A stretch of DNA of 64,000 nt from Pocillopora damicornis. Taxonomy: Eukaryota. The stretch spans positions 186,001 to 250,000 of the forward strand of contig NW_020843568.1 of NCBI RefSeq assembly GCF_003704095.1, read 5' to 3'. A model generated the notes under the pieces. That model was not told the DNA's origin and did not search any database. It was given only the letters and a program-made list of their open reading frames with translations. A program made the translations under genes and the position numbers. This document shows, in pieces, positions 24,274 to 28,862 of the stretch (its first letter is position 1; each line of letters begins with the position of its first letter).

Positions 24274-27215
24274 ATGGGCACAATTCCGGTCTGGGTTATA
24301 GTTTTCGTATTCGCATCTTTTACACACGAGGGTGAGTATTAAGTTATGATAACTAAAGTTTAAAATTACGGATATCTCTCTTCAATAATATGCCTTATTT
24401 CACTGAAGTATCTCTCCAGTGTGATCATGGCGGCTTCTGAGCATTAAAAAATTAAAAATACGCCGTATATTTTTACCCTCCTAACTCTAAAAATCAGGTT
24501 CTAGTATCTTGCTGACACTAAAAAGAATGAGAGGTGTTTTGTTTAGCTTTTAACTTGATTTCTAGATAAAGTCGATACAAGGAAAAAAACCATTATAGTA
24601 AAAAAAGCGTTCGGTCATGGCACTAATATTTTTATATTTGAAACGGTTGGAAGTATAATTTGAACGTAAAATTAAGATTGAGAAAAGGGGAAGACATGGA
24701 AGATATGTCTCAATGTAAGGACGTTCTTTTTTTTTTATTTAGCACGTGGTCGAGGTTGTCCTATGACCTTAACAGCCATGGGCTGTTATAGAGACTATAG
24801 AGGAATGAGAGTTCTTCCAAATCTCATCATGAACCAACGTGGCATAGATGGCTTCTGGGCAAACTATACAAGTGTGCTTCCCAGGTAATTGCAACAACTT
24901 GAGTTAAGTAAGCTTCATTTCTCTCAGATGGTGAAGTACAAAGAAATTTTGAGCAGTAAAGCTATCTTCAGTTGGTAAAAATGATATGAATTATTTTAAC
25001 GATTATTAAGCTGAGAATTTCTCGAGGTAGTCACATGTCACTTATGTTTCAAAGTGATAATACCTCTTTTATGTATCCTGGCAACAATGCAATACTTCCA
25101 GAGAGTGCCCCATTAAAGTTCACTTTGAAAGTGGGCTCCATTTGGGCGTGTACTTTAGGACAATGAAACAGGAAGTCGGGCATTTTTATTCACAGGCAAA
25201 ATCTTGAATGCATTGGGAGAGTACAATATTTTTCAGTCAATTTAGTTAATCAGCGGTACTATGTCTCGGACAACTGTGCAAGTCCTGTAATAGTTGAAAA
25301 ACATATATATTTTCGATTCCTCGTGGGAAGGAAGAATTTTAGAATTTTTTCTTCGTATGCCGCTTATGACAAGGTGGAAAGCATTTTTTAATTTTATGAC
25401 AGAGCTCAAATGTTACCATATCTCGTTTTGTATTTTCCCCTTTGAGAGTGAGTAAGCCTCAATTCCTAATGAAGACTTCCTTTGTCCCACTCTCGTGACC
25501 AGTCGAAAAAGCATTAGTCTCTAAATGCACAGTTGTTGTTTATTTTGCTAAGTGATTGGGACCCTAGTTTCTTATACTCGTTCGTATGTTCGTTTGCTTT
25601 TTTTGTTTGGTTAAACCTGTTGTTTTTATTTTCTATTTTTGTTATTAGTTTAATTTGTAGTTGTGCGACAAAAGCCAAAGAGATGGGCTACAAGTACATT
25701 GGAATTCAATATTATGGAGAATGCTGGGCAGGAGACTACTTTGCTCGTCCGCTTAAAGAGAAAAGAAGTTGTATAGACTTAAAATTCCGAACGTGTCAAA
25801 AGATGGGCCCTTACAGGATATGCAGTGGAAAGGAATGGACAAACTTCATTTATGGATTACAAGAAGTAAGTGTGACTGAAAGAGAAGCCACGAACTTTCA
25901 ATGTGGGAAATGGATTAATAAACAGTGTGATTGTTATTTTTAGTATAAGACGTACAGAATTCACACTTGCGTAGAAAAGATGACACCCGAGAGCAAGTGA
26001 TGGCACTGTTGTAGCTATTGAGTGTCGAAACTAACGCGGGTTTGCTTTGGTTTTACTTAGCTTTGCTCTGTGATTGGTCAAGAAGACTACCGCCATCTTC
26101 TCTACCAATCAGATGCAAAACTAAAAACAATCGCGACTAGATTATTTGCGTTTTCTCGCGCTTCAAATAGTTTGCTTGCTCTGAGTACTTATTGGCTACT
26201 GATAGTCTAAACCTTAATTCTGATAGGTCACTGGCATTATATTGGTTTTGGTTTTTTTCCACGCTCAATTTAAAACTGCTCAATTATGATATGCACGTGA
26301 TTAAACCATCCAACTTATTATTTACAGATGATTTAGTGTTAACAACTAAGTTGAAAACGTAAATTGGCCACCGTAAAGAGTTGAAAGGCTGACGTTTCGA
26401 GCGTTAGCCCTTCGTAAGAGCGTTAGCCCTTCGTCAGAGCGTTAGCCCTTCGTCAGAGCGTTAGCCCTTCGTCAGAGCGTTAGCCCTTCGTAAGAGCGTT
26501 AGCCCTTCGTAAGAGCGTTAGCCCTTCGTAAGAGCGTTAGCCCTTCGTCAGAGCGTTAGCCCTTCGTAAGAGCGTTAGCCCTTCGTCAATCGCTCTGACG
26601 AAGGGCTAACGCTCGAAACGTCAGCCTTTAAACTCTTTATGGTGGCCAATTTACGTTTTCAACTCAGTTGTTAACACTAAATTACCTGTTATACTCTCCC
26701 AACGACGCAGCAACACAGTTTCTTAAGAAACTTACCCCGTTTGATTATTTAAAGAGTCGGATGTTTATCACGGGGAGTTGGTAATTAACAGGGATGTTCT
26801 TGTTTTGGTTTATGCTTTATTATTCAGTTTCTCCCTCCTTTAATTGACTTCTAACCAATATTGGTATTTGCTGCTTCATTTTTTTGTCATGGCTGTGTCA
26901 TCCAAGCCTACCGCAGCAGAGCCAGTTCCGACTAAAGCAGTCACAGCTAAACCAACAACAGAGGCAACTACGAGCAAACCAGTTACAACTCAGCCAATAA
27001 CAGCTGTATCAACAGCTAGGCCAACTCAAGCAAATAGAACCATAAGTAAGGAATTATTTATTTCACCATGCACAGAAAAGCGATTTTCATTTTCTTCAAC
27101 GAGCACACTCACTTCCTCCATACCAGTCATATGCAGTTATACACGAATGAATCCATGCTGAAATTTACGCATACGCGACGGAAAAGTTAGTAGCGAATTA
27201 GAAAATACCCTTGAA

Positions 27216-27260
<45 letters not shown>

Positions 27261-28862
27261 TATAGCAGGTAATTTAGTGTTAACAACTGGGTTGAAAACG
27301 TAAATTAGCCACCGTAAAGAGTAAAAAAGCTGACGTTTCGAGCGTTAGCCCTTCGTCAGAGCGATGACGAAGGGCTAACGCTCGAAACGTCAGCTTTTTT
27401 ACTCTTTACGGTGGCTAATTTACGTTTTCAACCCAGTTGTTAACACTAAATTACCTGCTAGAAAATACCCTTGTCATTGCTAATCAATCTCAGATGGAAT
27501 CTTCTGTCAATTTAAATACCTCTATGTGGAAATCAAACCCTTTAAGGCATGTGCTCTATATTAACATGACTTTGTCTCCATATTTCAGATTGTAAAAAAC
27601 CCTTGGACATTGCCTTTGTTGTCGACGCTTCTGGGAGCATCGGAAACAAATCTTTTCAGCTCGTTAAGTCATTCTTGAGAGAATTCACACACTATTTCAA
27701 CGTTTCCACGAACGGTACTCATTTCGCTTGCCTCCACTACGATCATCATGTTTACATGGATTTCACCTTTAACGACACAATATACCACAACTCATCTGTC
27801 CTTGATATGAAACTTGACAGCATGCCGTACCCCTCAGGAGCCACCCGTTCTGACCAAGCTTTATGGGGTGCCTATTGGTTATACAGGCCAAATAATGGTG
27901 CTCGTGACTACCACGACATACCTCGGTGTGTTTTAGTGCTGACTGATGGCAAGACTTTCGGCGGCATGGATTACTTGAAGCCACCTGTTGCTGCTCTAAA
28001 GGTATTTTTAGAAGGAAGGGGGGAGGGCTGTCCGTAGGTGCATAAGGCCTCACCTTTGGTTTGAAGAGCGATGAGATTGGAAAGCATCCAGGTAAACTCG
28101 GAAATTCCAATTGACCAAGTTTGTTCCTCCCCCCTTATTTTGTTGAAGAATCCCTTCTATAGCCTTACGCTAAAGTGAGCCCCCCCTGAATTTACCGATA
28201 AGGTCTAACAACCTAAAGGATCAGTTTATTTATTACTTTATTTGAAATATTTAGACAGCCCAGATCAGCTTCAAAGGGGGCCTGTATAAAAAATAACAAG
28301 GCCAGACCGTAACACCAGGAGCTACACGCCCTACTCTTTGCGAGAAGTATGTGGGTTCTTTAACGTGCCCTTCTAACCAGTACAGAGAAGATACAGGAGA
28401 CGGAGCCTACGGTCTATCATCCTAATCCTAAAGGACTAGAAAGTGTAACCATTTGCGGATGTCATCGAAAGGAGAGCACATTTTCTTTAGTTGAATACCC
28501 TGAGGGTTGGTCCAGTCTGGAGCTTGAACCCTCAGCTTCGGGTAGGGTAGTCTGTTGCTCTACAACGTGAGAGAACCAAGCGCACACTCATCTACCGACC
28601 TCACGACATCCTTGAAAGAAATCACTTTGTAACGGAGTGTAGCGTAGTTAATATGGATTTTTTTTCCTGCCTTATTAACGTCAACCTTAATGCTTTTTAC
28701 CAGAAATCATCCTACGCAAAAATTGTTGCAGTCGGTATTGGTTGGGAAGTGGATTTGGTAGAACTTAGAATTATGGCTGGGGAAGACCATTACGTATTTG
28801 TGGACAGATTTGAAAATCTCGCCGACCATATTCGAGAAGTGCTGGGCAAAGTGTGCGATTAG
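24274..28862 (+). CDS. Secreted protein: signal peptide, WSC-like Cys domain, Thr/Pro mucin linker, VWA domain. Exons: 24274-24331, 24743-24884, 25649-25865, 26907-27045, 27589-28001, 28704-28862
   Basis: Phase-compatible GT-AG junctions. Signal peptide MGTIPVWVIVFVFASFTHE. WSC-like GCYRD...LICSCA...GYKYIGIQYYGECWAG. PT-rich exon. VWA CKKPLDIAFVVDASGSI...GATRS...VLTDG...VAVGIG...VC with an intact MIDAS. TATATAA at about 24149. An alternative in-frame acceptor exists at 25661. Confidence 0.85.
26020..26282. mobile_element. Decayed MITE, related to the element at 36029-36307
   Basis: Ends in CTCAATTTAAAACTGCTC (compare CTCAATTGAAAAGTGCTC at 36288). Its TTGCTTTGGTTTT motif is the reverse complement of AAAACCAAAGCAA in the 36-kb copy. 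Confidence 0.45.
26399..26588. repeat. Tandem array of 10 x 19 bp, GAGCGTTAGCCCTTCGT(C/A)A
   Basis: Units counted directly. The variant position reads A,C,C,C,A,A,A,C,A,C. Confidence 0.95.
26591..26625 (+). ncRNA. Minimal type I hammerhead ribozyme (Penelope-type), sense to the host gene, in intron 3
   Basis: C-GCU [CUGACGA] A GGGC-UAAC-GCUC [GAAA] CG UC^AGC: conserved core, 4-bp stem II, GCU/AGC stem I, and a vestigial palindromic stem III (ACGU) of the dimer-type hammerheads. Predicted cut after C26622. Confidence 0.75.
27214..27460 (-). mobile_element. Palindromic Penelope-like pseudo-LTR insertion, copy 2, young, with a target-site duplication
   Basis: Perfect 96-bp inverted repeat (27263-27358 / 27365-27460) with a 6-nt spacer. 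Tail 27214-27262 is near reverse-complementary to the copy-1 tail. Direct repeat TAGAAAATACCCTTG at 27199-27213 and 27459-27473. Confidence 0.85.
27329..27363 (-). ncRNA. Minimal hammerhead ribozyme, intact on the minus strand
   Basis: Reverse complement reads CGCU CUGACGA A GGGC UAAC GCUC GAAACGUC AGC. The plus-strand arm lacks core C3 and stem I. Confidence 0.75.
28225..28585 (-). mobile_element. tRNA-headed SINE with a Deu/Nin-type central domain, in the last intron of the first VWA gene
   Basis: Decayed tRNA head with B-box GGTTCAAGCTCC (minus strand, about 28520-28532). Central CCCTACTCTTTGCGAGAAGTATGTGGGTTCTTTAACGT resembles the Nin domain as I recall it. A-rich 3' end near 28225. Confidence 0.6.

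What the first reader, a model, noticed from the sequence alone, without database searches (positions are those of the whole stretch)
27199..27473. Young ribozyme-bearing perfect palindrome with a 15-bp target-site duplication
Seen: a 247-bp non-coding insert made of a 49-bp tail plus a perfect 96-bp hairpin, flanked by TAGAAAATACCCTTG on both sides. Copy-specific variants are shared by both arms within a copy (TTAGCC and AAAAAAGC here, TTGGCC and AAAGGC in copy 1). Both copies have almost the same junction: the tailed arm starts TCGCTCTGACG and the inverted arm starts TGACG. Inference: the palindrome is made anew at each insertion by fold-back at the ribozyme, or is homogenised by conversion. 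This is a recently active non-autonomous hammerhead retroelement. Inverted pLTRs and hammerheads are known in Penelope-like elements; the long clean TSD and fixed junction deserve a look.
Basis: partly seen in the sequence, partly recalled or inferred. Interest (0 to 1): 0.7.

Follow-up and report, generated by a model that had tools for sequence, protein, structure and literature searches.

The report
Twin-primed Penelope retrotransposon mini-palindrome
This mirror-image insert is a short, promoter-less copy of the ribozyme-bearing end of an ordinary Penelope-like jumping gene, one of hundreds in this genome, and its sister copies indicate that the two halves were likely copied separately from the element's RNA, one from each cut DNA strand, rather than folded back or homogenised.

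Summary
The structure is real: a 15-bp target-site duplication (TSD), perfect 96-bp arms and a 49-bp tail, lying in a spliced intron. It is not a separate non-autonomous family. It is the terminal repeat (pLTR) of an RT + GIY-YIG Penelope-like element, probably Neptune-type, with 276 exact tail matches in the genome. Inverted pLTR, one-sided tail and TSD are published features. Neither the TSD nor the junction is special: 12-16-bp TSDs occur in 43 of 61 inverted copies, and the apex varies. What is fixed are the two outer ends, near +97 and +150. All 25 unselected palindromes pair one tailed with one tail-less arm. Tail-less solo copies have their own TSDs, and some paired arms barely overlap. 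This argues against fold-back and conversion, and for two cDNAs primed from opposite nicks at two initiation sites. 5' ends pile up 31-32 nt below a TATA box; five insertions stop at the predicted hammerhead cut. No empty allele and no intact full-length copy were found. The twin-priming reading was not found in my paper searches, but this scan noted it before in at least 11 other genomes.

The parts
27199..27213 (.). Target-site duplication, copy next to the tail; its last 2 nt also match the template continuation (+150/+151)
27214..27365 (-). Tailed arm: element sense, positions -2 to +149 (+1 = window 27362); inferred cDNA from initiation site 1 (about +150)
27214..27262 (-). 49-bp tail (+101 to +149), the stretch between the two inferred RT initiation sites; a TTACC motif lies just 5' of each site (+91-95 and +141-145)
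27329..27362 (-). Minimal type I hammerhead motif (helix I 3 bp, CUGACGA, extra A, helix II 4 bp, GAAA, palindromic 15.2-16.2, UC); predicted cut between 27332 and 27331 (+31/+32)
   Evidence: motif features in PMC4209133. Not an Rfam hit; activity not tested
27359..27365 (.). Apex: 6-nt spacer plus 1 shared base where the two inferred cDNA 3' ends were joined
27365..27460 (+). Tail-less arm: element sense +5 to +100; inferred cDNA from initiation site 2 (about +97). Its hammerhead lacks C3 and the 5' strand of helix I, so the host pre-mRNA strand has no complete motif here
27459..27473 (.). Target-site duplication, second copy; its first 2 nt (TA) are shared with the arm end
26325..26738 (+). 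Copy 1: an older-subfamily insertion of the same pLTR (tail-less inverted arm, ten 19-nt units at 26399-26588, tailed arm to 26738); best flanking repeat only 8 nt
27046..27588 (+). Host intron (GT..AG, 543 nt) that holds the insertion, between a Thr/Pro-rich exon and a VWA-domain exon
   Evidence: spliced joint in RNA contigs of two studies; Pfam VWA E=2.9e-21

Best explanation
This is a short insertion of the terminal repeat (pLTR) of an RT + GIY-YIG Penelope-like retrotransposon, and its palindrome likely arose by twin priming: both strands of a staggered 13-15-bp cut likely primed reverse transcription on an RNA predicted to start at the pLTR promoter. Steps: (1) Shown: the same pLTR follows the EN stop codon of RT/EN-coding copies. 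(2) Inferred: RNA starts about -3/-2, 31-32 nt below a TATAAA box. (3) Inferred: one nick primes at about +150 (tailed arm), the other at about +97 (tail-less arm), probably by an RT dimer on one RNA, with the trailing enzyme displacing the first cDNA. (4) Inferred: both cDNAs run to the RNA 5' end, or stop earlier, sometimes at the hammerhead cut (+32). Their 3' ends are joined through 0-6 nt of microhomology or templated inserts and then filled in. The product lacks the promoter boxes and is probably dead on arrival.
For: 276 exact tail matches; 24 copies 100% identical over 149 nt among 40 scored. RT (RVT_1, E=3e-7) and GIY-YIG (E=3e-4, just under the curated cut-off) lie upstream of the same pLTR in L112. 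Fragments in L141 and L112 tile an 806-aa single-ORF relative at 63-79% identity. In the first 100 of the 276 tail places, 61 have an inverted partner; its outer end is at +90-105 in 53 of 61 and never reaches +140. In the first 100 of 426 places of a mid-arm 30-mer, chosen without regard to the tail, all 25 paired matches are head-to-head with one tailed and one tail-less arm (p=3e-8 if each end chose its site independently at 50:50). Site 2 works alone: 6 of 13 tail-less solo copies have a 9-14-bp TSD (L205, L228, L236, L246, L249, L250). Some arms cannot be copies of each other: L238 (+5..96 and +92..149) and L235 (-1..96 and +125..155), both TSD 14; L121 (tail-less -736..+94, tailed +63..153, TSD 13); also L138 and L257. 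L096 and L217 are mirror images of this window's junction type. 39 of 100 tailed arms start at -4..+1; TATAAA is at -34 and CCAAT at -60. In vitro, an anole Poseidon protein cuts and extends both strands, starts at two adjacent RNA sites that bound the tail, and is predicted to be a dimer (PMC11167929).
Against: All mechanism steps are inferred from end points; no start site or intermediate was observed, since only contigs were available. Later central deletion in a palindrome could shorten either arm and explain part of the asymmetry, though not solo tail-less copies with TSDs. Of 17 of 60 copies scored as 'tail-less arm reaches further 5-prime', several are aligner artefacts or lack a TSD; about 8 are clean. 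Three private variants are shared by both arms (L028, L050, L068), which fold-back or conversion would also give. Short inverted duplications at truncation points (L071, L122, L133) look like local fold-back during joining. No intact full-length element or 5' pLTR joined to the ORF start was found in G000. No empty allele in 4 of 4 DNA runs that cover the locus. The in vitro paper found the start site not homologous to the cut DNA, whereas junctions here share a mean 1.9 nt (null 0.6, counted one way only).
Confidence: 0.72

Rival explanations
1. Fold-back or self-priming: one cDNA (or an antisense RNA) folds back at the apex and copies itself out to about +97.
For: 39 of 61 inner ends lie at -12..+11, close to the other arm's start. 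Some copies have near-symmetric apices far upstream (L033 -67/-77, L045 -32/-31). Three private variants are shared by both arms. Short fold-back-like inversions occur at truncation points.
Against: The +97 end occurs as a solo 3' end with its own TSD. Arms with little or no shared sequence exist (L235, L238), and tail-less arms can be hundreds of bases longer than the tailed arm (L121, L127, L138, L257). The apex is variable and is not at the ribozyme cut.
Confidence: 0.12
2. Twin priming, but on two separate RNA molecules (for example an RNA dimer held by the palindromic hammerhead helix III), with the two enzymes set to different start sites.
For: It avoids copying +1..+97 twice from one RNA. 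Minimal hammerheads of these elements are proposed to act as dimers (PMC4209133). No A-to-G change is among the 6 rare variants shared by both arms, so there is no RNA-editing signature of a single template here.
Against: 25 of 25 pairs are mixed tail/no tail, although solo copies use both sites. Arms agree at the common +43 T/C variant in 48 of 50 pairs read on both arms, although both variants are abundant. Both arms stop at +32 in L074 and L050.
Confidence: 0.1
3. A self-propagating non-autonomous hammerhead element (retrozyme-like or MITE-like) whose arms are kept identical by gene conversion.
For: High copy number, small size, perfect arms in 21 of 55 pairs. A bioRxiv preprint links animal retrozymes to PLE pLTRs.
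Against: No fixed unit: junctions, arm lengths and TSDs differ among copies, which grade into ORF-bearing ones. There are no tandem HHR units and no promoter boxes in the short copies. 44 private changes lie in one arm only, against 3 in both.
Confidence: 0.04

Closest known systems
EN+ Penelope-like elements with inverted pLTR, one-sided tail and TSD (Adineta vaga Pen2a, PMC3846280; general scheme in PMC8557442)
   Same: Head-to-head inverted pLTR, tail on one arm only, TSD, TATA/Inr-like motif in the pLTR, frequent 5' truncation, solo pLTRs.
   Different: The tail is about 50 nt rather than 30-40 and TSDs are 12-16 bp rather than 8-10. Those authors proposed self-priming; the copies here fit twin priming better.
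Poseidon element of Anolis carolinensis in vitro (PMC11167929)
   Same: Two adjacent internal RT start sites that bound the tail; both target strands cut and extended; AT-rich targets (TSDs 69% AT); HHR in the pLTR.
   Different: This family has the CX4CxxC linker that Penelope/Poseidon lack. In the parts I read, the paper does not tie the two sites to opposite strands of one inverted insertion and found no RNA reads ending at the HHR cut; here five genomic insertions stop there.
Neptune/Nematis clades of C-terminal EN+ PLEs (PMC8557442)
   Same: DKG, RT (YIDD), thumb, CX2-5CxxC linker (CARSRCKTC) and C-terminal GIY-YIG with an internal CxxC.
   Different: Clade not placed by RT phylogeny here; no named reference sequences were available.
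Non-LTR retrozymes (bioRxiv 10.64898/2026.07.22.740005, first fifth read)
   Same: Non-coding, type I hammerhead, pLTR-related.
   Different: Retrozymes are head-to-tail tandem units with at least two complete HHRs; these are dispersed head-to-head or solo insertions with TSDs.
L1 twin priming (recalled, no call)
   Same: The second target strand primes a second cDNA on the RNA, giving an inversion within a TSD.
   Different: In L1 the two cDNAs cover different parts of the RNA at a variable internal site. Here the second site is fixed and the cDNAs overlap, giving a palindrome.

Membership tests
EN+ Penelope-like element | RT followed by a C-terminal GIY-YIG endonuclease, linked to this terminal repeat | tested here: met
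   L112: RVT_1 E=3.4e-7 and GIY-YIG E=3.1e-4 (21.4 bits, cut-off 22.6), EN stop at -93 of the same pLTR. The ORF is broken in this copy.
EN+ Penelope-like element | Intact single ORF of about 800-900 aa in a full-length or tandem copy | tested here: inconclusive
   Only overlapping broken fragments in 40 long G000 loci. Intact 806-904-aa relatives exist in other assemblies, 59-69% identical to the N-terminal fragment.
EN+ Penelope-like element | pLTR in direct or inverted arrangement, tail at one end | tested here: met
   61 of 100 inverted; tail on one arm in 25 of 25 unselected pairs
EN+ Penelope-like element | Minimal type I hammerhead in the pLTR | tested here: met
   Core, extra nucleotide 9/10.1, G10.1-C11.1 and palindromic 15.2-16.2 all present (against PMC4209133). 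Sequence motif only; Rfam gave no hit.
EN+ Penelope-like element | Variable-length TSD | tested here: met
   12-16 bp, mode 13-14, in the 46 copies selected for TSD of at least 12; 43 of 61 inverted and 8 of 39 solo copies
Neptune/Nematis clades | CX2-5CxxC linker before GIY-YIG, and CxxC inside GIY-YIG | tested here: met
   CARSRCKTC and CITCTYC in L010; motif definition in PMC8557442
Neptune clade | Placement in the RT phylogeny | not tested
Non-LTR retrozyme | Head-to-tail tandem units each with a complete HHR | tested here: not met
   Copies are solo or head-to-head; the 19-nt arrays hold no complete HHR
DNA MITE | Fixed terminal inverted repeats and a constant short TSD | tested here: not met
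   Ends differ (+147-158 and +90-105), TSD 12-16 bp, many solo arms, partner is an RT
Active hammerhead ribozyme | Self-cleavage at +31/+32 | not testable with these tools
   Indirect only: 5 insertions have an arm ending at +32. The monomer's lowest-energy fold masks the core.

The most novel reading that the evidence does not exclude
One Penelope RT dimer copies a single pLTR-started RNA twice, each subunit primed by one strand of the cut and fixed at its own TTACC-marked start site 50 nt apart. This would explain the one-sided tail, the inverted pLTR and the flood of hammerhead-only short copies at once. The copies that stop at +32 would be a genomic record that the minimal hammerhead cuts in vivo, and the 19-nt apex arrays might record telomerase-like realignment at the template's 5' end.
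Probability: 0.5. Interest if true: 0.62.

Novelty: new member of a known kind. Interest (0 to 1): 0.4.

Why it matters
The element is ordinary, but how Penelope-like elements make inverted repeats and tails is called unresolved in PMC8557442, and PMC3846280 offers self-priming as a hypothesis. Hundreds of young copies give discriminating end-point data: the strict one-tail rule, tail-less solo copies with TSDs and non-overlapping arms favour priming from both target strands, and link the in vitro two-site result to genomic structure. This yields a direct barcoded-template test. For annotation, such palindromes should be filed as Penelope pLTR insertions, not as MITEs or new ribozyme families.

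Tried and rejected
Empty allele: in 4 of 4 DNA runs from four studies (one may be the genome's source), unbroken contigs run from each flank through the TSD into the element, so the insertion is present and no empty site was seen (105 joints were not shown, and contigs drop rare variants). Two further coral-metagenome runs do not cover the flanks. Start sites and HHR-cut ends in RNA could not be read, because only contigs were served. Rfam: no hammerhead hit at gathering score. Full-length element: not found after three DNA searches walking 5'; many long loci contain N gaps. The A-to-G single-template signature suggested by earlier finding e1-10280452 was not seen: 0 of 6 rare shared variants. 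A cap-derived 5' G was not seen; short copies instead show C before AATC in 13 of 16. Sequence look-up in earlier findings gave nothing. Rows set aside before counts: L042 (N gap) from the asymmetry count; L026 and L001-L013 from the unbiased 100, as they came from a full-length query; copies with N from the arm comparison; copies with TSD under 12 from the microhomology test. L244 and L219 abut N gaps and are counted among the 13 tail-less solos without a TSD. No structure or complex prediction was run.
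Full report
1. Observation. The 15-bp repeat, 96-bp perfect arms, 6-nt spacer and 49-bp tail are as described. There are 245 bp between the TSD copies, and 2 nt of the right TSD double as the arm end. I number the element on the minus strand, +1 = window 27362. The tailed arm covers -2..+149 and the tail-less arm +5..+100. 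The insert sits in a 543-nt GT..AG intron that is spliced out in RNA contigs of two studies, ahead of a VWA exon. Run labels ('coral metagenome') and sea-anemone protein hits point to a cnidarian host; that is inference.

2. Family. The 149-nt arm has 24 matches at 100% among the 40 candidates scored, of 1903. A 48-nt tail pattern has 276 exact matches and a mid-arm 30-mer has 426. Longer copies continue upstream into a GIY-YIG endonuclease ORF that stops at -93. L112 has RT and EN upstream of the same repeat. L141 supplies the N-terminal part with the DKG motif. These pieces tile an 806-aa single-ORF relative. The linker has the CX4CxxC motif that PMC8557442 gives for Neptune and Nematis (passages read), so Neptune-type is likely but was not tested by phylogeny. 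No intact full-length copy was found in 40 long loci, many with N gaps.

3. Survey of ends. I parsed 114 distinct copies; 100 of them are the first 100 listed of the 276 tail places, unselected for 5' structure. 61 have an inverted partner. Its outer end lies at +90-105 in 53 of 61 and never reaches the tail end, while tailed arms end at +147-158. A TTACC motif precedes each site, at +91 and +141. TSDs of 12-16 bp flank 43 of 61 inverted and 8 of 39 solo copies, so 15 bp is normal. The apex is not fixed: this window's junction type is the mode (9 of 61), mirror versions exist (L096, L217), and many junctions carry microhomology or templated inserts. Solo copies, which have no palindrome, show such inserts too (L013, L092).

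4. Fold-back versus twin priming. Fold-back predicts that the tail-less arm is a subset of the tailed arm and never occurs alone. Neither holds. Of 13 tail-less solo copies, 6 have a 9-14-bp TSD. L238 and L235 carry a tailed and a tail-less arm that share 5 and 0 positions, inside 14-bp TSDs. L121, L138 and L257 have tail-less arms reaching -736, -654 and -115 against much shorter tailed arms, with 13-14-bp TSDs. In the first 100 places of the mid-arm pattern, all 25 pairs are head-to-head with exactly one tail (14 parsed, 11), although solo copies use both sites. This matches the in vitro finding of two RT start sites bounding the tail and extension of both strands (PMC11167929, parts 1-2 of 4 read, supplements not seen). 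It differs from the self-priming hypothesis of PMC3846280 (passages read). Against my reading: later deletion can distort palindromes; only about 8 of the 17 'longer tail-less arm' calls among 60 are clean; short local inversions suggest some fold-back during joining.

5. Conversion. In 55 pairs (4287 sites) the arms differ at 127 sites and 21 pairs are perfect. 60 shared non-majority letters also occur in other insertions; 3 shared letters are private, against 44 private changes in one arm only. Arms agree at the common +43 variant in 48 of 50 pairs. The arms therefore start alike, from one source, and then drift apart.

6. Template 5' ends. 39 of 100 tailed arms start at -4..+1, and 15 extend beyond -20. 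TATAAA begins at -34 and CCAAT at -60, which by the usual spacing (own knowledge) predicts a start at -4..-2. The short copies therefore look like run-off copies of a pLTR-started RNA that leave the promoter behind; no RNA start was observed. Whether the RNA is the 5' end of the full element's message or a transcript from truncated copies that keep the promoter cannot be told here.

7. Hammerhead. The motif at +1..+34 has all the minimal-HHR features listed in PMC4209133 (parts 1-2 of 4 read), with the cut at +31/+32, about 30 nt from the apex. Five insertions have an arm ending at +32: L074 and L050 (both arms), L060, L215 and the solo L246. Against a hand tally of about 36 end events over +13..+90, P is about 1e-4 under a uniform model. 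Caveats: +32..+35 is a self-complementary 4-mer; three of these ends are ambiguous by 1-2 nt; and the monomer's best fold is a +4-9/+28-33 stem that masks the core and could stall the enzyme. In vivo cutting is suggested, not shown.

8. Age. Identity to many copies at 99-100% shows a young burst. This insertion is present in all 4 DNA runs that cover the locus, with no empty allele, so present-day activity is not shown.

9. Literature and earlier notes. The architecture is published (PMC3846280, PMC8557442). Searches for a twin-priming model of PLE inverted repeats gave no such paper: one unrelated review, listing only; only PMC11167929; none; only PMC3846280 on PLE mechanism, by title and abstract start. 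The library lacks most subscription papers. The retrozyme preprint was read in part 1 of 5. I stated the twin-priming reading before consulting earlier findings. The scan had reached the same reading in 23 findings from at least 11 other genomes; these are unchecked AI notes, not support.

10. Verdict. A real, young Penelope-like pLTR insertion, a new member of a known kind. Its value lies in the family-wide end-point evidence on an open mechanistic question. Interest 0.4.

Noticed in passing
window 26399-26588; L192, L199, L201, L202: The same 19-nt unit is tandemly repeated at the apex of inverted copies at 5 separate loci (10 units in copy 1). It is bounded by a 5-nt repeat at 0..+4 and +19..+23, near the template's 5' end. 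It could be telomerase-like realignment by the RT or later slippage; the mix of two unit variants in copy 1 suggests at least some later expansion.
   Followed up: partly
L185, L189, L190, L191; L186, L188: Long copies pile up at a second 5' end near the ORF's N-terminus: 4 loci start at one point (two may be a segmental duplicate) and 2 start about 30 nt further in. Cause unknown.
   Followed up: no
element position -4 in short copies: C precedes AATC in 13 of 16 short tailed arms, while 11 of 16 long copies have the TAATC form. This may be a non-templated G on the cDNA 3' end or a different source locus; it would give a 2-nt microhomology that explains the commonest junction.
   Followed up: partly
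L141, L138, L143, L158: Complex insertions join pLTR arms to internal RT-coding fragments in mixed orientation, suggesting template jumps.
   Followed up: no
window 26907-27045 and 27589-28001 (+): An expressed host gene with a Thr/Pro-rich exon and a VWA-domain exon.
   Followed up: partly
window 26017-26166 and 36155-36293: Two diverged (76-77%) copies of another dispersed repeat in opposite orientation.
   Followed up: no
window 6034-6106 (-): tRNA-like sequence, Rfam 46.4 bits; may be a tRNA gene or a SINE head.
   Followed up: no
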